DNA of 64,000 nucleotides from an uncultured Candidatus Saccharibacteria bacterium (GCA_964399075.1 CAYNPK010000001.1:55457-119456); one strand, 5' to 3'; shown: positions 30,806 to 48,894, counted from the stretch's first letter. The notes: a model not told the origin generated them from the sequence alone. Numbers and translations: made by a program.

Positions 30806-31795
30806 TTATTTTAAAGTAATTCCTAAATTATTCAAGGCCTTTTTTATTTCTGTCACTCCTTTTTCACCAAGACCAGTTATCTTTTTGAGATCTTCTTCCT
30901 TTTTTCTGGCCAAGCCACCAACCGTTCTGATGCCTTCTGTGGTTAAAGCTCGAGAAATACGGCTAGAGAGATTTAGATCATCAATTCTTGTTTTGAGAGC
31001 CTCATCTTGACCTTTTTGCTCCTCAGTGTCAGTAAAAGCCTCTTCTTTGCTAAAAATTTTGTCCTCATGATCTGATCCATCAACAGAAGCCTTGTCACTG
31101 TCTTCTTTCAAATCAGCAATTGATCTAAGTTGAGTAATCATGATTTCGATCGATTTTTGCAAAGCTTCCGCTGGTGTTAAAGTGCCGTCAGTTTCGATAT
31201 GTAAACGTAAGCGATTATAATTTGTTCTATCGCCGACTCTCATATTTTCTACTTCATAACTAATTCGACTTACGGGAGTAAAAGCTGCGTCAACGAAAAT
31301 TAAGCCGACTTCATTTTTTTCTCGAGACATTGACTCCTTAGGCAAGTAACCTAAACCCTTTTCTAGAGTCATTTCTACATTGAGTGAACTATTTTTTTCT
31401 GTTAACGTCGCAATGTGTTGAGTTTTATTTAAGATTTCAACCAAACCGCCAGTTTCAATATCAGACGCTGTTACCTCACGAGAACCCTTCACTGACAAAG
31501 TAATCTTTTTAGGCTCTTGATCGGCGAAATTAAATCTAATTTTTTTAAGATTCAAAATTACCATGATCATATCTTCTTTTACGCCTGGCAAAGTAGAAAA
31601 TTCGTGCTCAGCTCCCTCAATTTTTATTGAAGTAATAGCTACTCCCAATAAAGAAGACAGGATGATCCGTCGCAAAGAATTACCCAGAGTTTGACCGTAA
31701 CCAGGATGTAATCCTTCTATTTCATAAGTGCCACTGAAATCATTTTGACTGACAACTTTTAACTTAGAAGGCAAACTAATGTGTGACTCAATCAT
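30806..31795 (-). CDS. rpoA: DNA-directed RNA polymerase subunit alpha
   Basis: Alpha NTD (GTYEIEGLHPGYGQTLGNSLRR) and CTD (LNLSSRISRALTTEGIRTVGGLA...). Confidence 0.95.
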   Translation of the reverse strand: MIESHISLPSKLKVVSQNDFSGTYEIEGLHPGYGQTLGNSLRRIILSSLLGVAITSIKIEGAEHEFSTLPGVKEDMIMVILNLKKIRFNFADQEPKKITLSVKGSREVTASDIETGGLVEILNKTQHIATLTEKNSSLNVEMTLEKGLGYLPKESMSREKNEVGLIFVDAAFTPVSRISYEVENMRVGDRTNYNRLRLHIETDGTLTPAEALQKSIEIMITQLRSIADLKEDSDKASVDGSDHEDKIFSKEEAFTDTEEQKGQDEALKTRIDDLNLSSRISRALTTEGIRTVGGLARKKEEDLKKITGLGEKGVTEIKKALNNLGITLK

Positions 31796-33302: not shown

Positions 33303-33419
33303 TTAAGCTTGTTTTTGTTTGTGGCTAGGCTTAGATTTGCACACAACATACAAATGGCTGCGTCTTTTTACTAACTGACAACCAGCACACCGTTTTTTAA
33401 TCGAGGCTCTTACTTGCAT
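33303..33419 (-). CDS. rpmJ: 50S ribosomal protein L36
   Basis: Not in the ORF track (38 aa). My minus-strand translation is MQVRASIKKRCAGCQLVKRRSHLYVVCKSKPSHKQKQA, which matches the L36 zinc-ribbon consensus. Confidence 0.85.
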   Translation of the reverse strand: MQVRASIKKRCAGCQLVKRRSHLYVVCKSKPSHKQKQA

Positions 33420-33430
33420 GTTTAATTTGT

Positions 33431-33670
33431 TTAAAATCGTTTGATAATTCGACCTTTACCTCCATAGGAATCAAGAAAAACTTCAACTCTATCACCGATA
33501 AGCACCCGAATTCGATGTAAACGCATTTTGCCTGAGAGATAAGCAAGAATTTGCTTACCAGACTCGATTTCAACTCGAAAAAGAGTATTTGGCAAAGCTT
33601 CAACCACCACACCAGAAGTAACCTCTTCTGATTTCTCTGATGGTTGGCTTAATTGGCCTTCTGTCGGCAT
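33431..33670 (-). CDS. infA: translation initiation factor IF-1
   Basis: S1-like fold: GVVVEALPNTLFRVEIESGKQILAYLSGKMRLHRIRVLIGDRVEV. Confidence 0.9.
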   Translation of the reverse strand: MPTEGQLSQPSEKSEEVTSGVVVEALPNTLFRVEIESGKQILAYLSGKMRLHRIRVLIGDRVEVFLDSYGGKGRIIKRF

Positions 33671-33678
33671 TATTTGAG

Positions 33679-34941
33679 CTACGAACTTATATTAGCAGAA
33701 GCCTCCGGATGAGTCAATACTTTAATTTCTATGTCTTCGGATTGAGACGGGAAATATCTAAGCCACGGTGGCCAAAAAATAGCCTTGGCCGAATAAATAG
33801 CTGGAAATTGTTGAGAAATGGACTCTCCTTGACGCTTAGAATTACCAGCTAATAATTGGCTTAGCGCAATGGTATCAACTTCAGCTTGAATATAAGCTTG
33901 GCCAGAAACAGTAAGAGTAATCGACTCTGAGCTCTCAGTCACTTGTTCTTTATTATTTATCGTGATATCCAGATCGCTTAAATTAGAGATGAAATATTTT
34001 AAATCTTGAAAATCGGGAATTTCTCCATTGATCAAGTGAACAGTAAATTGATTTCGGTCAAAAATAATCACGCGCGGTAGAGCTGAAACAGTTAAGGTTA
34101 CCGAATTATCTTCACCCTCATTAACTTGCAATTGTTCAGAAAAATCAACAGATAAAGAATCGGCAGACCAAATAAAGGTGTCCGGAATTTGCGTCACCAA
34201 TTGACCCAAAGCTTGTTCTCTCAAAATTTGCTCTAATTCCGCCCGAGAAGATCTCTTGTCGTCGTCGGCCACTTTGGGAATTGAGCCGACGTAGCCACCA
34301 GTCATGGGAGTTTTTGAGCGAGCATAGAATTTTTCATATCGCGGACTATCTTTAAATCCAGGAATAGAGAAATCAGTTAGTGGAGAATTATAATTTTCTC
34401 CCGGATTATCAGCATAAACTGTTACTTCAACTTGTCCGGGAACAATTTGACCAGAAATGGTTGTTTGACCGGGAACGACAACTTCTTTATTAATGCGATA
34501 AATATTACCCGCCGTAGACTCAAATCTAGTGCCGGTAATTAAGGTTTGAGGAGAAGTGTTAAAATTATTATAAATAACAATTTGACCGCTAGCTTTTTGT
34601 TCAACCTCTTCGATCCCGCTGGCGATAAGATTTCTAGAGTCAACTAGAGATGGGAAGGTGGCAATTTTAAAATCAGGAATTTGAACTTGTTTATTATCAA
34701 AAGTTAAAATTTCCTGTCTAGGTGTTATTTCTACAGAAACACTAGAAAATAAACTCCCGATCGTGTAGATGACAATAGAGAACAAAACTAAAACAGCGAC
34801 AATAATAAAAACACGAACAGTAGCCGGAGACGGAGATCGATGAGGTCTAGCGATTGATATGGCCACTGGTTTGGTTGCTGATACCTTCTTGGGTAAAATT
34901 TCGCTTAAACTTTTTTTGTGATTACGAATATCTTGAAACAT
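33679..34941 (-). CDS. hypothetical bitopic membrane protein (short cytoplasmic N-terminus, one TM, large extracytoplasmic domain)
   Basis: TM RVFIIVAVLVLFSIVIYTIGSLF. No recognised domain. First gene of a three-gene cluster between infA and alaS. Confidence 0.4.
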   Translation of the reverse strand: MFQDIRNHKKSLSEILPKKVSATKPVAISIARPHRSPSPATVRVFIIVAVLVLFSIVIYTIGSLFSSVSVEITPRQEILTFDNKQVQIPDFKIATFPSLVDSRNLIASGIEEVEQKASGQIVIYNNFNTSPQTLITGTRFESTAGNIYRINKEVVVPGQTTISGQIVPGQVEVTVYADNPGENYNSPLTDFSIPGFKDSPRYEKFYARSKTPMTGGYVGSIPKVADDDKRSSRAELEQILREQALGQLVTQIPDTFIWSADSLSVDFSEQLQVNEGEDNSVTLTVSALPRVIIFDRNQFTVHLINGEIPDFQDLKYFISNLSDLDITINNKEQVTESSESITLTVSGQAYIQAEVDTIALSQLLAGNSKRQGESISQQFPAIYSAKAIFWPPWLRYFPSQSEDIEIKVLTHPEASANISS

Positions 34942-34943
34942 AA

Positions 34944-36101
34944 TTAATTAATTGATTTTTTAATTCTACCATAAAAAACGGTTTCTGCTACTAGGGCTTG
35001 ATCATAAATAACCCCCGACGTTAAACTATAACCTTCTCGTAGAATATCAGCGGATAATACATTTACCATAAACGGCTTACGGCTAACTTTAAATTCACCG
35101 AATTCATACGCCTGAAGCCATTGATGGAACAATGGGGCCATCAGTGGATCACTGACAATAAAAACAGTACTTGGCATAAAGCAATCGTCTAAGACCTTAA
35201 TCAACCCCTGGCGGAAATTATCTAACCACTTGGTTTTAGCCTTATTTAATGCTTGATTTATCCGTTCCGCAATGAGTGGATGTTGCTTATTGGCGATAAA
35301 CAGAGCAAGAGAAGATCGCATTTCGGCTGGGGTTGTGGCAAACTCCTTAACCAAGGTTCTAAGCAACCAATGACTGCCGAAAGGGTAAGAAACACTCCCC
35401 CTTAGTAATTTCTGCCAAACTAGAGAAATCTCACTTACTTCCCCATCAACATCCAAAATAACAAAACTATCTTGATCTGAAATGTCTTTCAAAACTTGAT
35501 AGAAAGCGAAGGCGGTCGCACAAAATTCAACTTCAACATGATGCCATTTGGCCATAATCACTTTACGAAATTGGTCCAAAATTCGACTGGAACCAAGATT
35601 TAAATAATGAGCAATTTCCAGTTCGTTTACTTTCTGACCAAACGGATGAGGTAACAAATAACCATTAGTTTTAATTTGCATTTGTTCAGTTTGTATTAAT
35701 TCGTGAGCGGATTTTTTTTCTTGGGGAGAAAAGAGTGATGGCAGAGATCGTTTAAAAGTCGCGACCTGGCTCATCACTAATTTATTTACCAATTGCGATG
35801 TTAAGAGAAATGGCTTAATCTCACTTTTTTTAATTACTTGAGTGCGAGAGGCATAAAATGGCGCCGAAAGAAAGCAAACCACCTTCTCTGGACGAGAAGC
35901 GCCTTGAGAAATAAGCTGGGTGATAGATTCTTCCAGAGTCAGGACTACTTGATGCAGAAATCGTTCTGAAGTTAAATTTTCCTGGAAATTAACCTCTCGA
36001 CGAACTCGCTGAATGATTTCTGGTTTCGAGCCTTTCGATTGCTTCACTAAAGCGATTCCAATTGAGGCGCTACTAATATCAACAATAGCAACTGAAGACA
36101 T
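34944..36101 (-). CDS. actin-like ATPase fold protein (FtsA/PilM-like N-terminus)
   Basis: N-terminus VAIVDISSASIGIALVK resembles the phosphate-1 motif of FtsA/PilM/Ppx. About 385 aa. Weak overall. Confidence 0.35.
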   Translation of the reverse strand: MSSVAIVDISSASIGIALVKQSKGSKPEIIQRVRREVNFQENLTSERFLHQVVLTLEESITQLISQGASRPEKVVCFLSAPFYASRTQVIKKSEIKPFLLTSQLVNKLVMSQVATFKRSLPSLFSPQEKKSAHELIQTEQMQIKTNGYLLPHPFGQKVNELEIAHYLNLGSSRILDQFRKVIMAKWHHVEVEFCATAFAFYQVLKDISDQDSFVILDVDGEVSEISLVWQKLLRGSVSYPFGSHWLLRTLVKEFATTPAEMRSSLALFIANKQHPLIAERINQALNKAKTKWLDNFRQGLIKVLDDCFMPSTVFIVSDPLMAPLFHQWLQAYEFGEFKVSRKPFMVNVLSADILREGYSLTSGVIYDQALVAETVFYGRIKKSIN

Positions 36102-36125
36102 TTTAAAAGTATAACATGAATTAGC

Positions 36126-37685
36126 TTAAGGAAGGACACTGGGATTGTGAATAATTTTAAGCTTTTCAACTAAAGAAAGTATTTCTGAAGAGTCTGGACG
36201 ACTTTGTTGAGAAATCGAGATAAACTGAGCAATAGTCGGCCATAGAATCATCGAACGCCTTTCTGGTGTCAAATCATTCCAGTTTTCCGCTTCCTTATCT
36301 GGATCTGTGTAATCTGTGTGAGCTAGAACAGGGGGAGTTATTTTTTTTAGATTAGATTTAGGTTTGGATTTAACCAAAACAGGAAGATTATCATCTTCTG
36401 GGACTTGGGATGAAGTATAAAGTAAGACAGAAAAAGTTTCGCTAGCTGAATTATTAGACAGATCAACCGCCTGGCAAGTTACCAAAGTGGTACCAAGATC
36501 AAAAATCGTTCCAGAACTCGGACTACAAATAACCTCGACAACGCCATCGACCATATCGCTAGCAACTGGATAATCATAGTTAACAACGCTCGGTCCACCA
36601 ACTTCAATTTCTCTATCAACCACCGAAGATAAAACCGGTGGCGTAGTATCAACAACCGTAATTGTTCTTGTAATTGGTAGGGCTGAATTATCAGACAAAT
36701 TATTAACTTGATAAGTGACGATATGTTCGCCCAAAATAAGGGTATCAATTGGCAAACCGGTAACTTCAATAAGATCTGTAAGATCACCGTCATCTTGATC
36801 CCAAGCCGTAGCTCCGAAATCCACATAAGTTGAACCAGCCTCGACAACAATCAGCTCCTCGCCAATCAAAATAATAACAGGAAGATCTGGGTCAACCTCA
36901 ACAACTTCTTCCATTATTTCTTGCACGACAGTGTCAGAAGTACTGCCCTGGAAATTATCGTCACCCTCGTAAACAACAAAAAGTGAATGGAGCCCGGGCA
37001 ACAAATCAGAAATAGAAACAGTAGCCACGCCAGCAGAGTCTAATTCCAATGATTCAGCCAGATCTGTTTCCCCAAATTCACCAGTTTCTTTCAATTTAAT
37101 AACTCCGCTAGGAATACCAACACCGTCAGGAGAAGAATGAGACACAGTGACCACTAATTCTAAATCTTCTGTTGGCAAAGATGGGTTTGTTGCAGAAGAC
37201 AGAGTTATAATGCTATCAGCTTGATCGACTGTCTTATTTAAGGGGGCACTGTAGCCAATTGCAAGATTAATTAAACCCTCACTTTTATCAATAACTTCAG
37301 CAGTCAAATTAACTTCACCAGCCGAAGTGTCGCGATAGAAAAAATTATCGGTGTTTTGTCTGGGTGAAAGAATATCAAGAATTAAGTTTGTTTCTGTAAA
37401 ATCACCAACAGTGCTAGTATCAAAATACCCAGTTGGAGAATCTGAAGAAATTTTTACTCTAAGATATTGATCAGTCCCAGTTACCGCTTCAGCTAGGCCG
37501 TCAATATTTTGAGCCCGAATTCTTAGCGGTTTTGAAGTGATATTAGGCAAACCAACAATAAAACTTGGTGGCTGATCTACAGGATTAAATCCAATTTGAG
37601 TAATTTCATCACTGGCCGCTTCGACAATTCTAAAAACACCAAAAAGGCTAACCAAACAAAAGGTTAGAATAAAAAGATTTTTCAT
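36126..37685 (-). CDS. secreted protein with tandem bacterial Ig-like (DUF5011/HYR-like) domains
   Basis: Signal peptide. ...DDGDLTDLIEVTGLPIDTLILGEHIVTYQVNNLSDNSALPITRTITVVDTTPP and a second ...DGVVEVICSPSSG...LVTCQAVDLSNNSASETF repeat. Confidence 0.45.
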   Translation of the reverse strand: MKNLFILTFCLVSLFGVFRIVEAASDEITQIGFNPVDQPPSFIVGLPNITSKPLRIRAQNIDGLAEAVTGTDQYLRVKISSDSPTGYFDTSTVGDFTETNLILDILSPRQNTDNFFYRDTSAGEVNLTAEVIDKSEGLINLAIGYSAPLNKTVDQADSIITLSSATNPSLPTEDLELVVTVSHSSPDGVGIPSGVIKLKETGEFGETDLAESLELDSAGVATVSISDLLPGLHSLFVVYEGDDNFQGSTSDTVVQEIMEEVVEVDPDLPVIILIGEELIVVEAGSTYVDFGATAWDQDDGDLTDLIEVTGLPIDTLILGEHIVTYQVNNLSDNSALPITRTITVVDTTPPVLSSVVDREIEVGGPSVVNYDYPVASDMVDGVVEVICSPSSGTIFDLGTTLVTCQAVDLSNNSASETFSVLLYTSSQVPEDDNLPVLVKSKPKSNLKKITPPVLAHTDYTDPDKEAENWNDLTPERRSMILWPTIAQFISISQQSRPDSSEILSLVEKLKIIHNPSVLP

Positions 37686-37699
37686 TTAATTAAATTTTT

Positions 37700-39505
37700 T
37701 TATTTTAAAACAGCTTTAATACGACGAATACCGGCAGCAATCGCTTCTTCTTTAATAATCTTGAATTCACCTAATTCTCCCGTCCGAGACACATGCGGAC
37801 CGCCACAAAATTCTTTAGAATAAGCGGAGTCTAAGCTATCGCCAATATAATAAACCGACACTTGCTCACCGTATTTGTTGCCGAAAAACCGAAGCGCGTC
37901 AGTCTTCTCCGCATCAGCGCGATTCATGATTTGGCAATTGACTGGTAAATCTTGTTGGATAATATTATTCACTTCGGTTTCTACGGCTAACTTCTCTTCA
38001 GTTGTTAATTTATCTCCGTGAACGAAATCGAAGCGCAACCGCTCTGGAGTGATGTTACTCCCCTTCTGTTGCACTTGATCACCTAAAACATTTCTTAGAG
38101 CCTGATGCAAGAGATGAGTAGCGGTGTGATATCTAGTTTCTAGCTCACTAGTACCAGCCAAACCACCCTTAAACTTTTGACCGGCACCAGCTCGAGAGAG
38201 TTGCTGGTGTTTTTTCATTTCCTGATTAAATTCACTAACATCAACACCCAATCCTTTTTCATCAGCAAGCTCAATAGTCATCTCGAGAGGAAATCCATAG
38301 GTTTGAAAAAGATAAAATGCATCCGTACCAGAGATTACCTTGTTTCTCATTTTTACATTAAAATTATACATTCTACCAAACCACTTAATTCCTTCCCGCA
38401 AAGTCACTCGAAACTTTTCTTCCTCTAAACTAATTTCTTTTTTAATTTTTACCCATTCAGTCTTTAATTCCGGATAAACTTCTTGATATTTCTTAACAAT
38501 CACTTCCGCAATTTCAGTCAAAGCGCCGTTACCTAATCTTGAAGAATCAGCATAACGCACCGCGCGACGCATTAGACGACGCAAAATATAACCCCGATCA
38601 GTATTGGTTGGCAGAACACCATCCGCGATCATGAATACCGATGTCCGAATATGATCAGCAATAATTCTCGCTGATTTACTGTCTGAATTTTTAGCTAGAT
38701 TTTTAATTTTACTAATAATCTCATCGAAGAGATCAGTCTCGTAAATACTTCCTTTTTTCTGAATGACCATCAAGAGTCGTTCTAGCCCGGCGCCTGTATC
38801 CACATTGCGCTCCTTCAATTTTCCAATAACTTTGCCCTGATCTTTCTGAAATTCCATGAAAACATCATTCCAAACTTCAACGATTTTTTGCTCGTCTTCC
38901 GCTTTCTGTTCTTCTTCCGGAGTTAAATCACCCAAGCCCTTCGGAGTAATGTCATAAAACATTTCTGTACAAGGCCCCGTTGGACCAGACCAAGAATCAA
39001 CACCTTTTACCGCTGGCCACCAATTGGCATCCGCGCCCTTAAAATAAATTCGCTCTTTGGGCACGCCAACTTTCTGCCAAATTTCCGCCGACAAAGTATC
39101 CCGAGGCGAATTCTGATCACCGGCAAAAACGGTGACATAGAGTCGAGCTGGATCAAGCCCCAGTCCTTCTTCAGTGGAAGTTAAAAATGCATAACTCCAC
39201 TCAATCGCCTCTTGCTTAAAATAATCTCCTAGAGACCAATTACCCAGCATCTCAAAAAAAGTAGCATGAGTGTTATCACCAACATCCTCAATGTCAGTGG
39301 TGCGAACACATTTTTGGACATTGGCTAGGCGCTTGCCGGCAGGATGTTTCTCGCCCAGTAGATAAGACACTAGAGGTTGAACACCGGCGGAAATAAAGAG
39401 GGCCGAAGGATCATTCTCCGGCACGAGAGAAGCCGAAGGCAGGATAGCGTGTCCGCGCTGTTTGAAAAAAGCTAAGAATCGTCGGCGAATTTCTGTTGAT
39501 TTCAT
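37700..39505 (-). CDS. alaS: alanine--tRNA ligase (short form lacking C-Ala domain)
   Basis: True start MKSTEIRRRFLAFFKQRGH at 39505. Editing-domain HxxxH/CxxxH present (HTATHLLH, CGGPHV). About 600 aa. Confidence 0.85.
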   Translation of the reverse strand: MKSTEIRRRFLAFFKQRGHAILPSASLVPENDPSALFISAGVQPLVSYLLGEKHPAGKRLANVQKCVRTTDIEDVGDNTHATFFEMLGNWSLGDYFKQEAIEWSYAFLTSTEEGLGLDPARLYVTVFAGDQNSPRDTLSAEIWQKVGVPKERIYFKGADANWWPAVKGVDSWSGPTGPCTEMFYDITPKGLGDLTPEEEQKAEDEQKIVEVWNDVFMEFQKDQGKVIGKLKERNVDTGAGLERLLMVIQKKGSIYETDLFDEIISKIKNLAKNSDSKSARIIADHIRTSVFMIADGVLPTNTDRGYILRRLMRRAVRYADSSRLGNGALTEIAEVIVKKYQEVYPELKTEWVKIKKEISLEEEKFRVTLREGIKWFGRMYNFNVKMRNKVISGTDAFYLFQTYGFPLEMTIELADEKGLGVDVSEFNQEMKKHQQLSRAGAGQKFKGGLAGTSELETRYHTATHLLHQALRNVLGDQVQQKGSNITPERLRFDFVHGDKLTTEEKLAVETEVNNIIQQDLPVNCQIMNRADAEKTDALRFFGNKYGEQVSVYYIGDSLDSAYSKEFCGGPHVSRTGELGEFKIIKEEAIAAGIRRIKAVLK

Positions 39506-39536
39506 TGATTTAGCTATTCTAACAAATTTTAAACAT

Positions 39537-39569
39537 AAAAAAAACAGGCAAACCTCATCGGCTTGCCTG
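39537..39569 (-). terminator. rho-independent terminator of the alpha-CTD-like gene
   Basis: Minus strand: CAGGCAA-loop11-TTGCCTG then TTTTTTTT. Confidence 0.55.
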
Positions 39570-39589
39570 CGCCTCACTCTCCCAGCTTG

Positions 39590-39988
39590 TCAAACACCAT
39601 CAGACTTTGCCGGCGACTTCCAGGCGAGAATCTCTCTTTCAGTCATCCCCAGACGAAGGCCAGAGATAGTGAGCAGTTTGCCTTCGATCTCCTTAAGAGT
39701 ACCGTACCCAAGACCACGAATACAAAGCAACTCATAGTCTCTCTTCCTGACCAATTCACCAATGGTCCGAATTCCAATTTTAACGAGACAATGTCTCGCT
39801 CGTGACGACAATTCAAGCAAGCTAAGTTCGCACTCAAAAATGTCGGCAGGTGAAGTTCTGGGTAACCCAACGAGGGGGTCACAATCTGACCAAATTCCAA
39901 TATATCTCAAGCGAGACTTGAGGGCTTGATTTTCTTTTTCCAGTCTTCGATTTTCTGCTTCGAGATTACTGATCCTGTTCGTCATCAC
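39590..39988 (-). CDS. stand-alone RNA polymerase alpha-subunit C-terminal-domain (alpha-CTD)-like protein with N-terminal coiled coil; high GC
   Basis: C-terminal ELSLLELSSRARHCLVKIGIRTIGELVRKRDYELLCIRGLGYGTLKEIEGKLLTISGLRLGM aligns with E. coli alpha-CTD [58 protein letters not shown]. N-terminal heptad region (LEAENRRLEKENQALKSRL). AGGA RBS. Confidence 0.6.
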   Translation of the reverse strand: MMTNRISNLEAENRRLEKENQALKSRLRYIGIWSDCDPLVGLPRTSPADIFECELSLLELSSRARHCLVKIGIRTIGELVRKRDYELLCIRGLGYGTLKEIEGKLLTISGLRLGMTEREILAWKSPAKSDGV

Positions 39989-41133: not shown

Positions 41134-41667
41134 CTAACCTTCTATCAGTCGCTTGTAAACTTCTAGAGCTGTTTTAGCATCAGACAAGGCCGAGTGAGCC
41201 TGTTTATTGATAATACCAAAATGTTCGCAAAGTGATCGCAGATTAAAGCGCTGAACTTGATTATGGTGATAAAGTTTGACGAAAGCCATTGACAGAAGAT
41301 CCAGACGGACACTGGCCATTAAATTTGGCACCTTAGTTTTGGCAAAAGCTCTCTCTAGAAAGGCCCAATCGAAGGTGATGTTATGACTAATCATTATTGC
41401 CCCCTCGGCCTTGTCGTTTAGAGCCTTAAGAGCTTGATCTAGATCAGACGCAAAGATCCAATCAGCGCTATTGTAACTATTGATTCGCAAGGCTTCCGGC
41501 TCAGCAGTTTCCAGATGTTCCGGCTTTACTTTAAGATCAAGCTCACTAACAATTTCAAAATTTGCTCCTGGTTTGACAACAACACAACCGATTTCGATAA
41601 TTTCCTGTCTCTCTGGATCAAGACCGGTCGTTTCTAAGTCAATAAAAGCTAGATTATTCTTTTTCAT
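41134..41667 (-). CDS. DEDDh 3'-5' exonuclease (DnaQ/epsilon-like)
   Basis: Exo I motif FIDLETTGL; H-x4-D motif near the C-terminus (HSALSDA). Confidence 0.75.
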   Translation of the reverse strand: MKKNNLAFIDLETTGLDPERQEIIEIGCVVVKPGANFEIVSELDLKVKPEHLETAEPEALRINSYNSADWIFASDLDQALKALNDKAEGAIMISHNITFDWAFLERAFAKTKVPNLMASVRLDLLSMAFVKLYHHNQVQRFNLRSLCEHFGIINKQAHSALSDAKTALEVYKRLIEG

Positions 41668-42578
41668 GCTTGAGGCATTATACTATTTCGTAAATATTGA
41701 TCAATATTTTTCTTGTGATCAGGATAATTACGAGCGTAGTGAGTCTGACCAGTGTTATCAGAAAGGAAAAACCAAAATTCATTTGGAACTGGATCAAGAG
41801 TGGCCATGATCGCTTTGAGACCCGGACTAACAATCGGTCGTTCTGGCAGACCATAATTTTCGTAAGTTTCGCGAGCCACATCAACCTCTAGTTTCCAACC
41901 TTCATCAAGCCTCTTCCAGAGAATACCAGCAATCATTCGACGAGTTTCGTAATCACTAGCTTCTTTTTCCACAATAGAACTCATCACCAGCACCTCTTCT
42001 AGAGAACGGCCACTATCTGTAATTTGCCCCTGGAGATCTGCGATTTGCCGTTGGAAATTTTTATTCATCAGGTCCAAAATTTGCTCGACTTTAATTCGTG
42101 AAGGAAATAAATAAGTACTGGGGAATAAATAACCTTGCTTACTTAAACCCATCTCAATAAAAACATCGGGATCAAATTCCAACAGTGGCGCTCGAGAAAA
42201 TATTTTAGCCATTTGCGCTACTGATAGACCTTCGGGCAAAGTAACTTTAACCGGCGCTAAAGTAAAATCACCATCAATGAAGCGCCGAGCTAGCTGAAAA
42301 ACATCAAGCGCTTCTTCAAATTGATAATAACCAGCAATTACCCGATCCTCGCCAGCAAACCACTTGGTGACAGTGGTAAAAACTAGAGGCGAGCGAATGG
42401 CTTTTTGCTGATATAAAGTCAGACTAATATTCTTTAAACTTTGCCCTGATTCGATAACTATAATTTGATCGACCGGAAAATATTTAGGCGGAGCAAAAAA
42501 AGCACCAAACAATAGCAAGGCGCCAATTATTAAGAAAGAAGCGATTGCGCCGATAATAATAATAAAATAACGTAACAT
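41664..42578 (-). CDS. mltG: endolytic murein transglycosylase MltG (YceG family)
   Basis: N-terminal TM plus YceG-like domain; 4-bp overlap with the exonuclease gene. Confidence 0.8.
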   Translation of the reverse strand: MLRYFIIIIGAIASFLIIGALLLFGAFFAPPKYFPVDQIIVIESGQSLKNISLTLYQQKAIRSPLVFTTVTKWFAGEDRVIAGYYQFEEALDVFQLARRFIDGDFTLAPVKVTLPEGLSVAQMAKIFSRAPLLEFDPDVFIEMGLSKQGYLFPSTYLFPSRIKVEQILDLMNKNFQRQIADLQGQITDSGRSLEEVLVMSSIVEKEASDYETRRMIAGILWKRLDEGWKLEVDVARETYENYGLPERPIVSPGLKAIMATLDPVPNEFWFFLSDNTGQTHYARNYPDHKKNIDQYLRNSIMPQA

Positions 42579-43949
42579 CTAGATGGGCAAATTAGTCGGT
42601 GGTTCAGCGCGCTTAGATTCAACCCTCTTTAAGCTTGGGGTGGCCACTACCCGACCAGGAAGATGGAAAATTGTGGCTAACTCTTCGGTCGTTAAAATAT
42701 AAGGTTTATTCATAAAATTTTGATACGGCGGTTGGAAAATCGAACGCTTTTTATAAGCATCGAGCATTTGAATTTCCATTTTATTGCGAACTTTGCGCAT
42801 ATGATTAGAGAACCAAGGCAACCAACCAAAAACAGTCAAGAGATCTTTTCCCAGATCTCTGTGGTCCGTAAACCAACCGAGTTTCAACTTATTCAACTCC
42901 TCGGAATTATACTGGCGCACACTACCAATTAATCCGGTAATATTTCCAGAATTAAAGTGATCTTTACGAGCGATATAGAAACCGCGCATCATCACTTCAA
43001 AGGGCAACTTCGCAATACTGCGCTCGATAGCCTCCATTTTTAATTGTTGACCCTTGGTTGGATGAGAAAAAGAAGTTTTCCCTTTATTGCCTTCTTGGGT
43101 AATGATATCGGCCTCAACAATCGCCTCTTTACGAATCTCCTCAATTTCATCTAAGGCTGCCTGTGTCCAATTTGGTTTTTCAAACAATCTGCCATCTTTA
43201 AGACCCTCCTTGCGGTGAGCTTGGCATAAAATTTGAATCCAGACTCGTTCATTGGGACCAACAGAACCTAGGTATTCCAAAACCGAACTAATAGGATCAA
43301 TCTTCTCTTCTTCTTCCGCCGGTTTGTCTAAACCATAATCAATATAAGTTTTAATGGGATAAACATCATCTTCCGCCAATTTAAAATGAGTTCCCCACAT
43401 AATCCAGGTTTCTGGGTCCCAATGAACTTCCTCCGTGTAATCTTCGACTTGACGGATTTCAATATCAGGATATTGAGCATAAAGTTGAGCCTCCACCACA
43501 TCCCGCATTTTATCTTGGCTCACCCAGATAAAGAATTTAACATCACCACCAAGAGAAACCAATTCACAGGAAAACCAGGGTCTGATTTTACCCAGCCAGT
43601 ATTGTTCAAGAAAAGAAGTATTTCCGGGTAAGTACAGAGAAGTAAAAAATAACTCCATAGCCAGAGGAGAACGACTCACTTCTCGTGGGAGTTTGATTTC
43701 CAATAAAACTGACTTCTGTGAAGCAACGCTAAGACTACGGATATAGAGCAACCACAAGCGCCAGAAAAGCATACCCAACATGAAGGTAAGCCAAATTGGC
43801 GCTGTTAGCAATAAATAATAAGCTGTCCTAGCAAGAACGGTTCCGGTTCCTGACCAGACAACAAAGAGAATGATCAAGCCGAAGAAACCCAGCAACAAAA
43901 CCAGGACGATCCAAATTTCTTTTAAAAACTCAAGAAATTTCTCAGGCAC
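42579..43949 (-). CDS. hypothetical membrane protein (2 N-terminal TMs + about 350-aa cytoplasmic domain)
   Basis: No recognisable motif; abuts mltG with no gap. Confidence 0.4.
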   Translation of the reverse strand: MPEKFLEFLKEIWIVLVLLLGFFGLIILFVVWSGTGTVLARTAYYLLLTAPIWLTFMLGMLFWRLWLLYIRSLSVASQKSVLLEIKLPREVSRSPLAMELFFTSLYLPGNTSFLEQYWLGKIRPWFSCELVSLGGDVKFFIWVSQDKMRDVVEAQLYAQYPDIEIRQVEDYTEEVHWDPETWIMWGTHFKLAEDDVYPIKTYIDYGLDKPAEEEEKIDPISSVLEYLGSVGPNERVWIQILCQAHRKEGLKDGRLFEKPNWTQAALDEIEEIRKEAIVEADIITQEGNKGKTSFSHPTKGQQLKMEAIERSIAKLPFEVMMRGFYIARKDHFNSGNITGLIGSVRQYNSEELNKLKLGWFTDHRDLGKDLLTVFGWLPWFSNHMRKVRNKMEIQMLDAYKKRSIFQPPYQNFMNKPYILTTEELATIFHLPGRVVATPSLKRVESKRAEPPTNLPI

Positions 43950-45128: not shown

Positions 45129-47975
45129 TCAAATCACAATATTAACCAATTTACCCGGAACATGAACGACTTTCTTAATCTTCTTATCTACTAACCATTT
45201 CTGGATTTTAGCTCTATTCTTAGCCTCAATTTCAATCTCAAGTGGCGACAATGACGGTGACACTTTAATAGTATCACGGAGAATTCCATTAATTTGAATA
45301 GCGATGGTGATTTCGTCAACAATGATTTTATCAGGATCATATTTCGGCCAAGGAGCAAGATGAATTGAGCGACTATTACCAAGCTCATGCCACAATTCTT
45401 CAGTTAAATGAGGAGCAAATGGAGCTAAGAGCTGAAGCATTAATTCATAATCCTGACGACTAATGTTCTCCTCTGTCTCCAGACTATTAACTAAAATCAT
45501 TAAAGAAGAAATCGCGGTATTGAAGCGCATGGCCTCAACATCCTCACTAACTTTTTTAATCGTTTGATGCAGAAGTAAGGTTAATTTTGAATTATCACTA
45601 CTCTCTTCTTTTTTGGCCACCTTGCTCCTTAAACGCCAGACTCTTTCCAGAAACCGCCGTGGGCCAATTAGACTCTCCGTACTCCAGGCAATGGCTTGAT
45701 CGAATGGTCCCATAAACATCTCGTAGAGTCGCAGAGTATCAGCACCATAAAGTTCCACAAACTTATCCGGATTAACCACATTGCCTCTTGATTTGGACAT
45801 TTTCTCTCCCCCTTCGGCCAAGATCATTCCGTGAGAAGTTCGCTTCTGGTATGGTTCACTACTCGGCACTAAGCCAAGATCGAACAAGAATTTGTGCCAG
45901 AATCGCGAGTAGAGCAAGTGGAGAGTAGTGTGCTCCATTCCACCGTTATACCAATCCACTGGCGTCCAGTGTTTTAACTTTTCTAAGGAGGCAAATGCAT
46001 CTATATTTCGAGAATCAACATAACGCAAATAATACCAACTAGAGCCAGCCCAATTAGGCATCGTGTCGGTCTCTCGCTCAGCTGGACCAGCGCAAGTTGG
46101 ACAAGTAGTCTTAACCCAATCAGTGATACCGGCAAGTGGTGATTCTCCGGTTTCTGTTGGCTGATAGCGTTCTACCGCCGGCAAAGTAACAGGCAAATCC
46201 TTCTCCGGCACCGACACCCAACCACACTTAGAACATTTAATCATTGGGATTGGTTCACCCCAATAGTGTTGACGAGAAAAAACCCAGTCACGAAGTTTGT
46301 AAGTAACTTTTTGTTGACCAAATTTATTAGTAATTTTTTCCTGCGCTTCTTCAGAAGCTAAACCATCAAATTCATTAGAATTAATCATCTCGCCTTCCAT
46401 AGAAAGAGCTGTTTCTGAAATTAACTGATTCCAAACCAGTTTTTGATGATCAGGGGTCAATCTATCAATTACAAGATCTTCATCTACCCATACAAGTGTA
46501 TGAAGTTTCTGTTCCGACTCAGCAATCACACCTTGATTCTTTAGACTATCAATTTCTGCTAATATTCCATAAGAAACCGCTTTTCTATTTTGTTTTTTGT
46601 GCGAGGCACAATATTTGGCTGCAGTGATCCAGCGTAATTTATTTTTAATAACAATTCCTTCAAGAGAGGCTTCTTCTTTTATCTCCATGAGTGCCGCCTC
46701 TTCTGGCGTCTGACCAGCCTCAATACCACCCATTATTGCTGTAGTAATACCTTCTAAACTCTCGTGCCAATCAAGTAATGCAAATTTGCCCGTAGACTTA
46801 TCACGCAAGTGGACAATAATTGTATCTCGCACAACTTCTTCAAAACCTTCACGAGGTGGATTTATTGAATCATCTTCGCATGGCATTATAACCTGCTTGA
46901 TAGGCAGATTAAATTTTTTCGCAAACGCATAATCTCTCTCATCGTGCGCCGGCACAGCCATCACGGCACCGGTGCCATACGACACCAAAACATAATCGGC
47001 GATCCAAACCGGAACCTTCTCTTGATTAGCAGGATTAATGGCAAAAACACCATCTAGCACAACGCCAGTTTTCTCTCGCCCTTCTGTGATGCGATCCATC
47101 TCGGTCTTAGTTTTGACTTCCGCTAAATATTCCTCCACCGCCGGCCAATTTTTAATTTGCGATTTCAATTTTTGAATCAACTCATGCTCCGGAGCTAATA
47201 CCACATAAGTAACCCCGAAGAGCGTGTCAGCCCTAGTGGTAAAGACTGAAACTTTTTCTCCAGAATCAACAATTTTAAATTCAAATTCCGCGCCGACACT
47301 TCGGCCTATCCAATGGCGTTGTTGAATTTTAATTTTCTCCAAATAATCTACCGTGTCTAAATCTTTATCTAATCTGTCAGCGTACTTAGTAATCGCCAAC
47401 ATCCACTGTTCCTTATCTCGCTTCTCCACCGGCGTCCCGCATCGTTCGCAATTCCCACTAACCACTTCCTCATTGGCCAAACCAATTAAACACTTAGGAC
47501 ACCAATTAATCGCCATCTTCTTCTTGTAAGCCAAACCTTTCTTAAATAATTGCAAGAAGATCCACTGCGTCCACTTGTAATATCCCGGATCAGTGGTGTT
47601 GATTTCTCGCGACCAATCAAAAGAGAAACCAAGCGACTGGAGTTGTCGCCTAAAAATATCAGTATTCTGCTTGGTAACAATCGCCGGCTGGACGCCAGTC
47701 TTAATCGCGTAATTCTCCGTCGGCAGACCGAAGGCGTCCCAGCCAATAGGATAGAGAACGTTATACCCTTCGGCGCGTCGCTTGCGGGCAATCACATCCA
47801 TTGCTGTGTTGCTCCGAATATGCCCGACATGCAAACCGTCGCCGGAGGGATAAGGAAATTCAATCAAGCAATAATATTTCCGCTTATCACTATTATCTAG
47901 AGCTTGATAAATTCCATCTTTTTCCCACTCCCTCTGCCACTTTGGTTCTATTTCTTTATGGTCGTAATTTTTCAT
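45129..47975 (-). CDS. leuS: leucine--tRNA ligase
   Basis: True start MKNYDHKEIEPKWQ at 47975. HVGH and KMSKSRGN motifs. Confidence 0.9.
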   Translation of the reverse strand: MKNYDHKEIEPKWQREWEKDGIYQALDNSDKRKYYCLIEFPYPSGDGLHVGHIRSNTAMDVIARKRRAEGYNVLYPIGWDAFGLPTENYAIKTGVQPAIVTKQNTDIFRRQLQSLGFSFDWSREINTTDPGYYKWTQWIFLQLFKKGLAYKKKMAINWCPKCLIGLANEEVVSGNCERCGTPVEKRDKEQWMLAITKYADRLDKDLDTVDYLEKIKIQQRHWIGRSVGAEFEFKIVDSGEKVSVFTTRADTLFGVTYVVLAPEHELIQKLKSQIKNWPAVEEYLAEVKTKTEMDRITEGREKTGVVLDGVFAINPANQEKVPVWIADYVLVSYGTGAVMAVPAHDERDYAFAKKFNLPIKQVIMPCEDDSINPPREGFEEVVRDTIIVHLRDKSTGKFALLDWHESLEGITTAIMGGIEAGQTPEEAALMEIKEEASLEGIVIKNKLRWITAAKYCASHKKQNRKAVSYGILAEIDSLKNQGVIAESEQKLHTLVWVDEDLVIDRLTPDHQKLVWNQLISETALSMEGEMINSNEFDGLASEEAQEKITNKFGQQKVTYKLRDWVFSRQHYWGEPIPMIKCSKCGWVSVPEKDLPVTLPAVERYQPTETGESPLAGITDWVKTTCPTCAGPAERETDTMPNWAGSSWYYLRYVDSRNIDAFASLEKLKHWTPVDWYNGGMEHTTLHLLYSRFWHKFLFDLGLVPSSEPYQKRTSHGMILAEGGEKMSKSRGNVVNPDKFVELYGADTLRLYEMFMGPFDQAIAWSTESLIGPRRFLERVWRLRSKVAKKEESSDNSKLTLLLHQTIKKVSEDVEAMRFNTAISSLMILVNSLETEENISRQDYELMLQLLAPFAPHLTEELWHELGNSRSIHLAPWPKYDPDKIIVDEITIAIQINGILRDTIKVSPSLSPLEIEIEAKNRAKIQKWLVDKKIKKVVHVPGKLVNIVI

Positions 47976-48894
47976 CTTGAATAGGAATGAGAGGGTAACG
48001 TTCCTGATCAATAGTTCTAGTAAAACAGGTATAACCTGTTTCGTGTTCCCAATTTTGTTGGACATCACCAAGTTGAGTTGGCCTCATTATGGCGGGAGCA
48101 GTATTATCTCGATTAGCAAGATTAAAATCAGCGCATAATTCAAATTCTTCTGGACCAAGCACTCGATAATCGTAAGCGACTCCAGTTTGTGGATCAAGAG
48201 GAATCTGATAATTAGAAATAGGGTCACTTAAATCCGTGAGAGCAAGCGGTAGAGAGTGTTTCTGTTGCCAATAATTAACAATCTGCCACTGAATATTTTG
48301 CAAATCATTAATTTTTCTCTCGTCAAAGCGCATTAGACGAACCGTCTGCGGTGAACCCATAATTACAAAACCGCCAACGATAGAGGCAATAATAACTACC
48401 AGAGAACTGATCGCCATTATTTTATTTAAGCGCGAATTTGTTTCATTCCTGCGTACGTCATACAAATAATAACCAAAAACTGCCATGGCAATAATCAATA
48501 CTGCTAGAACCTTAAGAATAAAGCGCGTGGTTATCTCACCGCCCAGAAAGTAATTAATTAGAGTAATAAGATTAATTACCAGAGTGACTCCAGCCACAAA
48601 TAAAGTGATGTAAATCAACCACTTACGGATCCACAAATCGCGCTTAGCCGGATCTTGAACATAATTACGATTTAAAAGCCAAGACAATAACACATAGAGT
48701 GGGAAAACAATCAAGAGCGAAGCAATAGACCAACGAATACCGGCAGAATAAGGATCAGAAAAATAATATTCCAATTGATCGGGAAAAGAAATATTGATAA
48801 TTCTAAACAACAAAGTCAGTAAACTAATAGTGCTGACAAACAAGGCGACAATAACGCCAAGATGCAAAAAGAAATCTTTTGGTGTGGTTTTCAT
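47956..48894 (-). CDS. hypothetical polytopic membrane protein with C-terminal soluble domain
   Basis: 4-5 TM helices then a soluble tail; 20-bp overlap with the leuS start. Confidence 0.4.
   Translation of the reverse strand: MKTTPKDFFLHLGVIVALFVSTISLLTLLFRIINISFPDQLEYYFSDPYSAGIRWSIASLLIVFPLYVLLSWLLNRNYVQDPAKRDLWIRKWLIYITLFVAGVTLVINLITLINYFLGGEITTRFILKVLAVLIIAMAVFGYYLYDVRRNETNSRLNKIMAISSLVVIIASIVGGFVIMGSPQTVRLMRFDERKINDLQNIQWQIVNYWQQKHSLPLALTDLSDPISNYQIPLDPQTGVAYDYRVLGPEEFELCADFNLANRDNTAPAIMRPTQLGDVQQNWEHETGYTCFTRTIDQERYPLIPIQDEKLRP

What the first reader, a model, noticed from the sequence alone, without database searches (positions are those of the whole stretch)
33679..37685. Three-gene cluster of unknown function inserted between infA and alaS
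Where adk/map/secY-type genes usually precede infA, there are instead three back-to-back genes separated by 2-24 bp:
- a bitopic membrane protein with a large external domain (420 aa);
- a protein with an actin-like ATPase N-terminus reminiscent of FtsA/PilM (385 aa);
- a secreted protein with two DUF5011/HYR-type Ig-like domains (519 aa).

The trio of cytoplasmic actin-like ATPase, bitopic membrane partner and secreted Ig-domain protein resembles PilM-PilN/O-type assembly platforms or a dedicated surface or attachment apparatus. None of the three is confidently assignable.
Basis: inference. Interest (0 to 1): 0.5.

Follow-up and report, generated by a model that had tools for sequence, protein, structure and literature searches.

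The report
Third FtsA/PilM-like actin with membrane partner
Two of the three genes form a conserved, uncharacterised pair found across Paceibacteria-type (candidate phyla radiation) bacteria: a cytoplasmic actin-like protein with the FtsA/PilM fold and a single-pass membrane partner. The third gene, a secreted Ig-domain protein, is a local insertion.

Summary
All three ORFs exist exactly as described (420, 385 and 519 aa; 2 and 24 nt apart), but they are not one unit.

- **Membrane protein (420 aa).** It is N-in and single-pass. It has a strongly conserved N-terminal cytoplasmic peptide (QDI.PP..RSIR.IP), a variable linker, and a roughly 355-aa ectodomain that starts with a GlxA/baseplate-J-like beta-barrel.
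- **Synteny.** In 75 of 82 related genomes (mostly GTDB species representatives), all carrying Patescibacteria/Parcubacteria-type names or no taxon name, the two genes are adjacent. They usually sit between alaS and infA-rpmJ-rpsM. This is the normal arrangement for the group, not an insertion.
- **Ig-domain gene.** It is absent from all those loci but one, and it has no full-length homologue.
- **Paralogy.** Published tables show that Parcubacteria also carry a canonical ftsA-ftsZ pair and a separate pilM, so this is most likely a third paralogous lineage.

I infer a PilM-PilN / FtsA-FtsN-like transmembrane module with a housekeeping role in the cell envelope. The interaction and the process are untested.

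The parts
34944..36101 (-). Gene for the 385-aa cytoplasmic actin-like protein ('act'). It has the FtsA/PilM fold and belongs to a third lineage.
   Evidence: - ORF.
- AF2 model: pLDDT 95.3, pTM 0.92.
- Family size: 2599 clusters at 50% identity with E<=1e-3.
- Conserved acidic residues: D8, D217 and E221 in >=90% of members.
- No hydrophobic segment and no tail after the last helix, 368-384.
35589..35852 (-). Codons for the 1C (SHS2-type) subdomain, residues ~84-171 of the actin-like protein.
   Evidence: - The model shows strand-helix-strand-strand elements E84-99, H102-119, E133-145 and E157-171, inserted after the strand at 73-78.
- Six of the 14 invariant or nearly invariant positions fall here (E137, N146, G147, Y148, P153, S168), and P81 lies at the junction.
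- Both FtsA and PilM bind their partner's tail in the IA-IC cleft (PMC7613929).
33679..34941 (-). Gene for the 420-aa bitopic (N-in) membrane partner ('bit').
   Evidence: - ORF.
- 255 homologues, all unnamed or 'hypothetical'; nearly all names that carry a taxon are Patescibacteria groups.
- One TM segment and a positively charged tail.
- The actin-like gene lies directly upstream in 75 of 82 loci.
34891..34941 (-). Codons 1-17: the conserved N-terminal cytoplasmic peptide (MFQDIRNHKKSLSEILP in the window; family consensus [ILF]-Q-D-[IV]-[VI]-P-P-x-[KR]-R-S-I-R-x-I-P).
   Evidence: - D is present in 97% of members, I/V in 95% and Q in 63%.
- Mean top-residue frequency is 0.46 over the motif and 0.16 in the following linker.
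- The alignment is shown.
34756..34812 (-). Codons ~44-62: the single transmembrane helix.
   Evidence: Kyte-Doolittle scan: the best 19-mer starts at residue 44 with mean hydropathy 2.91. There is no second hydrophobic segment.
34384..34596 (-). Codons 116-186: the beta-barrel domain of the ectodomain, of the GlxA domain / baseplate-J type.
   Evidence: - Pfam PF21110 scores E 2.9e-4 and 21.9 bits for the window protein, below the gathering score of 27.
- 72 of 87 family members match at E<=0.01 (best 3.4e-7), and 3 match Baseplate_J.
36126..37685 (-). Gene for the 519-aa secreted Ig-domain protein. It is a lineage-specific insertion at the alaS|act junction and not part of the conserved module.
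   Evidence: - Domains: HYR, Bact_surface_Ig-like and Big_3_5. Signal-peptide-like N-terminus and no other TM segment.
- Absent from L001-L005 and L007-L089. Only L006 has a related Ig/dockerin gene at this position.
- Homologues cover only 15-41% of the protein.
37700..39577 (-). alaS, the conserved upstream neighbour. Its true start is probably the ATG at 39505.
   Evidence: - alaS identity rests on its position and on phmmer matches of the window protein to the Pfam-annotated alaS (tRNA-synt_2c + tRNA_SAD) of the homologous loci. The window ORF itself was not scanned against Pfam.
- alaS is present in 76 of the 89 loci that carry bit, and lies within 300 nt upstream of act in 50 of 69.
- A terminator-like hairpin at 39570-39544 sits inside the 5' extension of the ORF as listed.
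33303..33670 (-). infA (33431-33670) and rpmJ (33303-33419), the conserved downstream neighbours. They are followed by rpsM-rpsK-rpsD-rpoA-rplQ.
   Evidence: - ORFs.
- infA follows bit in 73 of 89 loci, within 300 nt in 68.

Best explanation
The conserved unit is a two-gene module, not a trio.

**Proposed mechanism**
- The 385-aa protein is a cytoplasmic actin-like protein of the FtsA/PilM type, with a 1C/SHS2 subdomain.
- It docks onto the short, conserved N-terminal cytoplasmic peptide of the 420-aa single-pass membrane protein encoded immediately downstream. PilM binds PilN and FtsA binds FtsN in the same way.
- The complex couples a membrane-proximal, possibly nucleotide-regulated and possibly polymeric, cytoplasmic scaffold to a large extracytoplasmic domain that begins with a GlxA/baseplate-J-like beta-barrel.

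**Proposed role**
- The pair is widespread in Paceibacteria/Parcubacteria. It sits, apparently co-transcribed, between alaS and the infA-ribosomal-protein/rpoA operon. These organisms also keep a canonical ftsA-ftsZ pair and a separate pilM.
- I therefore read it as a third paralogous lineage with a housekeeping role in cell-envelope growth or division, not as a pilus platform.
- The Ig-domain gene is an unrelated, genome-specific insertion encoding a secreted surface or adhesion-type protein.

**Shown versus inferred**
- Shown: the fold, the topology, the conserved peptide, the adjacency and the distribution.
- Inferred: the physical interaction, nucleotide binding and the cellular process.
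For: **Fold**
- AF2 model: pLDDT 95.3, pTM 0.92.
- Foldseek: the top 29 PDB hits are all FtsA or PilM.
- The family profile hits PilM (E 4e-4) and FtsA (E 1.2e-3) among PDB sequences.

**Partner architecture**
- One TM segment with a tail of net charge +7.
- N-terminal motif with D in 97% and I/V in 95% of members, followed by an unconserved linker.

**Precedent**
- FtsN and PilN are both bitopic, and both bind the IA-IC cleft through their short N-terminal tails (PMC7613929).
- Six of the 14 invariant or nearly invariant actin-like positions lie in 1C.

**Linkage**
- The genes are adjacent in 75 of 82 loci, with a median gap of 43 nt and 2 nt in the window.
- One in-frame act+bit ORF of 822 aa exists in L084.

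**Distribution and context**
- 290 confirmed loci among GTDB species genomes; the best 80 all carry Patescibacteria-type names or no taxon name.
- 2599 clusters at 50% identity for the actin-like family.
- alaS and infA flank the pair in most loci.
- There are no intergenic terminator-like sites between alaS and infA.

**Paralogy**
- Parcubacteria core-gene tables list ftsA (COG0849) next to ftsZ and a separate pilM (COG4972), both far from infA/rpsM (PMC4508563 Table S1).

**No pilus or ftsZ genes nearby**
- None in the window.
- No ftsZ in the related loci. I did not screen those flanks for pil genes.
Against:
- A mirror-tree test gave no signal: partial r 0.11, reached by 243 of 2000 permutations. 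The actin-like distances are saturated, so the test is uninformative.
- Seven of 82 loci lack an adjacent actin-like ORF; one of them is the fusion. In five of the other six the partner keeps a recognisable form of the motif, so the peptide might bind something else.
- The adenosine 'GG' motif of FtsA and actin is replaced (S317-D318 here), so nucleotide binding is uncertain (alignment, model).
- Apart from one barrel domain, the ectodomain fold is unknown, and the profile finds nothing significant in the PDB.
- The assignment to envelope growth or division rests only on genomic context.
- I could not confirm that a canonical ftsA and pilM exist in this particular genome.
Confidence: 0.5

Rival explanations
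1. The actin-like protein is this lineage's true, highly divergent FtsA, and the bitopic protein is its FtsN/FtsQ-like divisome partner.
For: - 42 of 100 family members hit Pfam PF14450 'FtsA' at E<=0.01.
- JGI names one member 'cell division ATPase FtsA'.
- No ftsQ is listed in the Parcubacteria core table.
Against: - Parcubacteria already have a COG0849 ftsA adjacent to ftsZ, at loci far from infA/rpsM (PMC4508563 Table S1).
- There is no ftsZ in the window or in any of the 89 related loci.
- There is no C-terminal linker plus amphipathic helix.
- PF14450 is generic and hits MreB more strongly.
- The window protein has no Pfam hit at all.
Confidence: 0.15
2. The pair is a variant PilM-PilN alignment platform of a type IV pilus, competence or other type IV filament machine.
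For: - The gene order (actin-like gene, then bitopic gene with an N-terminal peptide) is the pilM-pilN order.
- CPR bacteria rely heavily on type IV pili (PMC6744442).
Against: - There are no pilB/C/T/O or pilin genes in the 64-kb window.
- In CPR the canonical pilM/N/O genes co-localise with pilB/C/T (PMC6744442), and Parcubacteria list a separate COG4972 pilM.
- The partner's ectodomain (~355 aa with a beta-barrel) does not resemble PilN, and there is no PilN or PilM_2 Pfam hit.
Confidence: 0.15
3. The two proteins do not interact. The actin-fold protein is a soluble ASKHA enzyme (kinase or phosphatase type), and the adjacency only reflects a frozen gene order next to the ribosomal operon.
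For: - 15 of 100 members weakly hit Ppx-GppA.
- The mirror-tree test found no co-evolution signal.
- Seven of 82 loci lack the adjacent actin-like gene.
Against: - Most family members carry an N-terminal hydrophobic-basic extension that suggests membrane binding.
- The partner's cytoplasmic peptide is conserved with no other obvious role.
- The fused ORF in L084.
Confidence: 0.1
4. All three genes act together as a dedicated surface or attachment apparatus, with the Ig-domain protein as the displayed or secreted component.
For: - The three genes are tightly packed on one strand.
- L006 also has a secreted Ig/dockerin protein and a CAP-domain protein just upstream of the actin-like gene.
Against: - The Ig gene is absent from 88 of 89 related loci, including the closest relatives L001-L005.
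- Inserts at this junction are heterogeneous.
- The Ig protein has only partial, domain-level homologues, in unrelated multidomain proteins.
Confidence: 0.05

Closest known systems
PilM-PilN (type IVa pilus inner-membrane alignment subcomplex; PDB 2YCH, 5EOU, 3JC8)
   Same: - No C-terminal membrane helix.
- The partner is a bitopic N-in protein encoded immediately downstream, and its first ~15 residues form a conserved cytoplasmic peptide.
- Fused forms occur: GspL-type fusions (from general knowledge), and L084 here.
   Different: - Only 10-12% sequence identity, and no PilM_2 Pfam hit.
- The peptide motif (QDI.PP..RSIR) is not the PilN motif.
- The ectodomain is about three times larger and contains a GlxA/baseplate-J-like barrel.
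- There are no pilO/P/Q/B/C or pilin genes nearby. The pair sits among housekeeping genes.
FtsA-FtsN (divisome; PDB 7Q6I, 1E4F, 3WQT)
   Same: - The 1C subdomain is present.
- FtsA binds the N-terminal cytoplasmic tail of the bitopic FtsN in the IA-IC cleft (PMC7613929).
- The context fits a housekeeping role.
   Different: - No C-terminal amphipathic membrane-targeting helix. Many family members instead have an N-terminal hydrophobic-basic extension.
- Not adjacent to ftsZ.
- A canonical ftsA-ftsZ pair exists separately in Parcubacteria.
- The partner has no SPOR or POTRA domain hit.
MreB-RodZ (elongasome actin plus bitopic partner)
   Same: A cytoplasmic actin-like protein is coupled to a single-pass N-in membrane protein with an extracytoplasmic domain. 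Some MreBs bind the membrane through an N-terminal amphipathic helix (general knowledge).
   Different: - RodZ binds through a folded HTH domain, not a short peptide.
- A bona fide MreB exists in related genomes (L054 and L036).
GlxA domain 2 (PF21110) and the baseplate J barrel (PF04865)
   Same: 72 of 87 partner proteins match PF21110 at E<=0.01, and 3 match Baseplate_J. The match covers residues ~116-186.
   Different: - The window protein scores below the Pfam gathering threshold (21.9 against 27 bits).
- There is no copper-oxidase or baseplate context.
- The rest of the ectodomain has no detectable relatives.

Membership tests
FtsA (divisome actin) | Actin/ASKHA fold with a 1C (SHS2) subdomain in place of 1B | tested here: met
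   [not shown]
FtsA (divisome actin) | C-terminal flexible linker plus an amphipathic membrane-targeting helix | tested here: not met
   The last fold helix is 368-384 of 385 residues, so there is no tail. Family members end at the same point.
FtsA (divisome actin) | Gene next to ftsZ or in the dcw cluster | tested here: not met
   The gene lies between alaS (or the Ig gene) and the bitopic gene. There is no ftsZ in the window or in the 89 related loci. The canonical ftsA-ftsZ pair is elsewhere in Parcubacteria genomes.
FtsA (divisome actin) | Matches the curated FtsA models (Pfam FtsA / SHS2_FTSA, NCBIfam) at the curated threshold | tested here: not met
   The window protein has no Pfam or NCBIfam hit. 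42 of 100 relatives hit the generic PF14450 weakly, and none hits SHS2_FTSA.
FtsA (divisome actin) | Binds the FtsZ C-terminal peptide through subdomain 2B | not testable with these tools
   This needs biochemistry or co-folding.
PilM (type IV pilus) | FtsA-like fold without a membrane helix | tested here: met
   [not shown]
PilM (type IV pilus) | A bitopic partner encoded immediately downstream, with a conserved N-terminal cytoplasmic peptide that binds PilM | tested here: inconclusive
   The layout and a conserved peptide are present. The motif differs from PilN's, and binding was not tested.
PilM (type IV pilus) | Co-location with pilN/O and pilB/C/pilin genes, and a match to the PilM_2 model | tested here: not met
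   There are no pil genes in the 64-kb window. No family member hits PF11104.
PilN / FtsN / FtsQ-DivIB (bitopic partners) | The characteristic ectodomain (PilN ferredoxin-like, SPOR, or POTRA plus beta domain), detectable by curated models | tested here: not met
   Only the GlxA barrel hit appears at E<=1. The profile finds no significant match among PDB sequences. The fold itself was not modelled.
GlxA beta-barrel domain (PF21110) | Match to the domain model at the gathering score | tested here: inconclusive
   The window protein scores 21.9 bits against a cutoff of 27. 72 of 87 relatives match at E<=0.01, with the best at 3.4e-7.
Bacterial Ig-like surface proteins (HYR, Bact_surface_Ig-like, Big_3_5): the 519-aa protein | Domain matches above the gathering scores, plus a secretion signal | tested here: met
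   HYR scores 54.1 bits, PF16403 48.9 and PF16640 45.2, all above their cutoffs. There is a hydrophobic N-terminus with ...VEA|AS.

The most novel reading that the evidence does not exclude
Paceibacteria possess a third, lineage-wide actin-like cytoskeletal system that is neither the divisome FtsA nor the pilus PilM. Its membrane-associated filaments or oligomers position an extracellular beta-barrel protein. This would be a previously unrecognised envelope-organising machine, perhaps for wall growth, cell shape or host contact, in ultra-small episymbiotic bacteria.
Probability: 0.3. Interest if true: 0.75.

Novelty: new variant of a known kind. Interest (0 to 1): 0.55.

Why it matters
FtsA and PilM are the two characterised families of bacterial actin-like proteins with a 1C/SHS2 subdomain known to me. 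Both work by gripping the cytoplasmic tail of a bitopic partner.

A third family with its own novel partner would add a new component to the very small set of cell-biology machines these reduced organisms retain. This family is large (about 2,600 clusters at 50% identity), widespread across a major class of candidate-phyla-radiation bacteria, and embedded in a housekeeping operon. Neither protein has a curated family in Pfam-A or NCBIfam, and I found no paper that describes them.

The finding gives a concrete, testable hypothesis: peptide-to-1C docking. It also gives a target for work in the few cultivated Patescibacteria.

Tried and rejected
- **First structure model.** The 6-sequence AF2 run gave pLDDT 60 with the 1C region disordered. 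It was superseded by the 137-sequence run.
- **The search for related loci.** A 12-sequence alignment worked.
- **afdb50 fold library.** It was not available.
- **Ectodomain against PDB sequences.** Nothing significant; the best hit was E~1.
- **PADLOC defence models.** No hit for any of the three proteins.
- **Search for canonical ftsA, ftsZ or pilM.**
  - The window has none.
  - About 10 kb beyond each window edge also has none.
There was no FtsZ. The only extra actin-like hits were MreB, confirmed by Pfam.
- **Relaxed search with the actin-like HMM over the loci.** No paralogues in the flanks.
- **Mirror-tree co-evolution test, act against bit.** Uninformative: partial r 0.11, reached by 243 of 2000 permutations, with saturated distances.
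- **Literature searches** for a description of this pair. None found.
- **Idea that the Ig gene belongs to the module.** Rejected on synteny.


Full report
**Observation.** One search lists three back-to-back minus-strand ORFs at exactly the reported coordinates: 33679-34941 (420 aa), 34944-36101 (385 aa) and 36126-37685 (519 aa). They are separated by 2 and 24 nt. infA (33431-33670) starts 8 nt downstream, and alaS (37700-39577) ends 14 nt upstream. rpmJ (33303-33419), rpsM, rpsK, rpsD, rpoA, rplQ, rplM and rpsI follow infA. Base composition does not mark the region as foreign: GC is 0.375-0.406 across the three genes, against about 0.36-0.47 across the 16 kb scanned. No terminator-like site lies in any of the short intergenic gaps on the coding strand, while a strong one lies just upstream of alaS. 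The genes are therefore probably co-transcribed with alaS and the infA/ribosomal-protein genes. That is an inference.

**The actin-like protein.**
- *Curated models.* Neither Pfam nor NCBIfam recognises the 385-aa protein.
- *Family size.* A word-indexed search found only five relatives. An exhaustive HMMER search with their alignment found 2599 cluster representatives at 50% identity with E<=1e-3, of which 970 had E<=1e-30. Almost all are about 390 aa long.
- *Structure.* A 6-sequence alignment gave a poor model (pLDDT 60). A 137-sequence alignment (A2) gave pLDDT 95.3 and pTM 0.92.
- *Foldseek.* The top 29 hits are all FtsA or PilM (E 3e-19 to 3.5e-13). The next hit is at 2e-9.
- *1C subdomain.* The extra aligned residues are the 1C/SHS2 subdomain, at residues ~84-171 (E84-99, H102-119, E133-145, E157-171).
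- *Sequence level.* The family profile reaches PilM (E 4e-4) and T. maritima FtsA (E 1.2e-3, aligned over positions 16-290) among PDB sequences. 42 of 100 members weakly hit the generic Pfam 'FtsA' ATPase-domain model, and none hits PilM_2 or SHS2_FTSA.
- *Conserved residues.* The phosphate-1 Asp (D8), the phosphate-2 Asp (D217) and E221 are conserved in >=90% of members. The adenosine 'GG' motif is not present.
- *Ends of the protein.* The chain ends with the last helix of the fold (368-384 of 385), so there is no FtsA-type C-terminal membrane-targeting helix. Most relatives carry a short N-terminal hydrophobic-basic extension such as MSLFSFF..KKK: 85 of 121 have at least 14 residues before the phosphate-1 Asp. 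The window protein and its closest relatives lack this extension.

The protein is a full FtsA/PilM-type actin-like protein.

**The membrane partner.**
- *Topology.* The 420-aa protein has a single hydrophobic segment (residues ~44-62). A tail of net charge +7 precedes it, so the N-terminus is cytoplasmic and about 355 residues lie outside.
- *Relatives.* It has 255 or more relatives. All are unnamed or 'hypothetical', and nearly all names that carry a taxon are Patescibacteria/Parcubacteria groups.
- *Alignment features.* An 87-sequence alignment (A3) shows three things:
  - A short, strongly conserved N-terminal peptide with consensus [ILF]-Q-D-[IV]-[VI]-P-P-x-[KR]-R-S-I-R-x-I-P. D is present in 97%, I/V in 95% and Q in 63% of members. 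Mean top-residue frequency is 0.46 over the motif, against 0.16 in the next 25 residues.
  - A variable, basic linker of very different lengths.
  - A well-conserved ectodomain.
- *Barrel domain.* Residues ~116-186 match the Pfam GlxA beta-barrel domain weakly in the window protein (E 2.9e-4, below gathering). The match holds in 72 of 87 relatives (best 3.4e-7), and 3 also touch Baseplate_J.
- *Rest of the ectodomain.* It has no detectable relative among PDB sequences.

**Is it a trio?**
- *Closest relatives.* In the nearest loci (L001-L005; the actin-like protein is 34-39% identical) the order is alaS, actin-like, bitopic, infA, (rpmJ), rpsM, with no Ig gene.
- *Other Parcubacteria.* The same order holds in Yonathbacteria and Taylorbacteria.
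- *Wider scan.* A scan of GTDB species-representative genomes with two conserved peptides of the bitopic protein gave 290 confirmed loci. The 80 best all carry Patescibacteria-group or Parcubacteria-lineage names (Vogel-, Campbell-, Niyogi-, Wolfe-, Yonath-, Lloyd-, Taylor-, Zambryski- and Nomurabacteria, Paceibacteria, Minisyncoccia), automated 'uncultured Saccharibacteria' labels, or no taxon name.
- *HMM-based synteny over all 89 loci.*
  - The actin-like gene lies directly upstream of the bitopic gene in 75 of the 82 loci with enough upstream sequence. The median gap is 43 nt.
  - alaS lies within 300 nt upstream in 50 of 69 loci, and infA within 300 nt downstream in 68 of 73.
- *The Ig gene.* A homologue appears in only one locus, L006. 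There a Bact_surface_Ig-like/dockerin protein and a CAP-domain protein sit between alaS and the actin-like gene.
- *Inserts at the junction.* In the 18 loci with more than 400 nt between alaS and the actin-like gene, the inserted ORFs are heterogeneous.
- *The Ig protein itself.* It has a signal peptide and Big_3_5, Bact_surface_Ig-like and HYR domains. Its only homologues are partial, covering 15-41% of the protein, in unrelated multidomain proteins.

The conserved unit is therefore the pair. The Ig gene is a genome-specific insertion at a junction that tolerates insertions, and the 'inserted cluster' is in fact the usual gene order for this class.

**Is it FtsA, PilM or something else?**
- *No division or pilus genes nearby.* I scanned about 45 of the window's 54 ORFs of at least 150 aa. 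None is ftsZ, a canonical ftsA, pilB/C/T/N/O or a pilin gene. Only mraY-ftsW-murG lie about 16 kb away. Nothing of that kind lies within about 10 kb beyond either window edge.
- *Related loci.* No ftsZ is present in any of the 89 loci. The only other actin-like proteins there are true MreBs.
- *Canonical ftsA-ftsZ.* Table S1 of Nelson & Stegen 2015 (PMC4508563) lists a COG0849 ftsA immediately adjacent to ftsZ in most of its Parcubacteria genomes, for example O210_OD1C00001G0277/0278, ACD1_55_83/82 and AB197_02465/02460.
- *Separate pilM.* The same table lists a separate COG4972 pilM. Both lie far from infA/rpsM (G0255/G0253).
- *CPR pilus genes.* Meheust et al. 2019 report that canonical pilM/N/O co-localise with pilB/C/T in CPR genomes. 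They also report that 20 families, mostly hypothetical and 12 of them predicted to be membrane-localised, are enriched in Parcubacteria (PMC6744442).

These points make the actin-like protein most likely a third paralogous lineage of the FtsA/PilM clade. I could not verify the three paralogues within this one genome.

**Mechanism (inferred).**
- *Precedent.* FtsA and PilM, the 1C-containing actin-like proteins discussed in PMC7613929, both bind the ~30-residue N-terminal cytoplasmic tail of a bitopic partner (FtsN, PilN) in the IA-IC cleft.
- *Same ingredients here.*
  - A 1C-bearing actin-like protein in which six of the 14 invariant or nearly invariant positions (E137, N146, G147, Y148, P153, S168) fall in 1C and one (P81) at its junction.
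  - A bitopic protein encoded 2 nt downstream, whose only conserved cytoplasmic feature is its first ~15 residues.
- *A possible fusion.* One low-coverage MAG contig (L084) even has the two as a single in-frame 822-aa ORF. This is weak support, because an assembly error cannot be excluded.
- *Proposal.* I propose a PilM-PilN / FtsA-FtsN-type transmembrane module that links a cytoplasmic, probably membrane-proximal, scaffold to an extracellular beta-barrel-containing domain.
- *Process.* The pair is widespread and embedded in a housekeeping operon. YceG/MltG lies a few genes upstream in the window and in L001, L002 and L005. I therefore favour a role in envelope growth or division. This last step is guilt by association only.

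**Evidence against, and gaps.**
- The interaction is untested.
- A mirror-tree test gave no signal because the actin-like protein evolves so fast that its distances saturate: mean distance 2.29, against 0.71 for alaS.
- Seven of 82 loci lack an adjacent actin-like ORF; one of them is the fusion. Five of the other six keep a recognisable form of the peptide.
- The nucleotide-binding site is atypical.
- The ectodomain fold and the cellular process are unknown.

**Novelty.** Neither family has a curated model in Pfam-A or NCBIfam. PADLOC has no match. Seven literature searches found no description. I rate the pair a new variant of a known kind: the FtsA/PilM-plus-bitopic-partner design with a new partner and a new context. 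It is moderately interesting (0.55) because the family is large, conserved across a class and gives a directly testable docking hypothesis.

Noticed in passing
window 39505-39577 (minus strand): The alaS ORF as listed starts at GTG 39577, but a strong terminator-like hairpin (39570-39544; 11 pairs plus a T-run) lies inside that 5' extension. The real start is probably the ATG at 39505 (MKSTEIRR..., 601 aa). Relatives are 605 aa.
   Followed up: partly
window 39590-39988 (minus strand): A stand-alone 132-aa protein consisting mainly of an RNA polymerase alpha C-terminal domain (PF03118, E 3e-13) sits between mnmA and alaS. It is separate from the full-length rpoA at 30806-31795.
   Followed up: no
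window 45129-48071 (minus strand): The 980-aa leucyl-tRNA synthetase has a NUDIX-domain hit at residues 444-545 (E 4.5e-5). This may be a domain insertion after the editing domain.
   Followed up: no
window 52182-52775 (minus strand): A 197-aa protein ends in a PEP-CTERM motif (E 8.5e-6). As I recall, PEP-CTERM sorting is typical of exopolysaccharide-producing diderm bacteria, so it is unexpected in a Patescibacteria-type genome.
   Followed up: no
Actin-like family members (alignment A2; for example P0144, P0168, P0185, P0192): Most family members carry an N-terminal hydrophobic-basic extension (MSLFSFF..KKK type). 85 of 121 have at least 14 residues before the phosphate-1 Asp. This could be a membrane-binding peptide. 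The window protein and its closest relatives lack it.
   Followed up: partly
L084 3046-5514 (DAOTDH010000031.1): A single in-frame 822-aa ORF joins the actin-like protein (residues 3-381) and the bitopic protein (396-820) through a 16-residue linker. It is either a natural GspL-like fusion or a lost stop codon in a contig with 3.5x coverage.
   Followed up: partly
L049, L053, L074 (for example L074 5630-6775): In L053 and L074 the alaS directly upstream of the bitopic gene is only 381 aa; Pfam, run on L074 only, shows just the catalytic domain. No actin-like gene lies between alaS and the bitopic gene in L049, L053 or L074, and the bitopic protein keeps its N-terminal motif.
   Followed up: partly
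window 41664-43949 (minus strand), and L002 and L005: A 456-aa ORF with no Pfam hit (its counterpart in L002 and L005 is DUF8128), followed by YceG/MltG, is syntenic a few genes upstream of alaS in related genomes. This adds a cell-wall enzyme to the extended neighbourhood.
   Followed up: no
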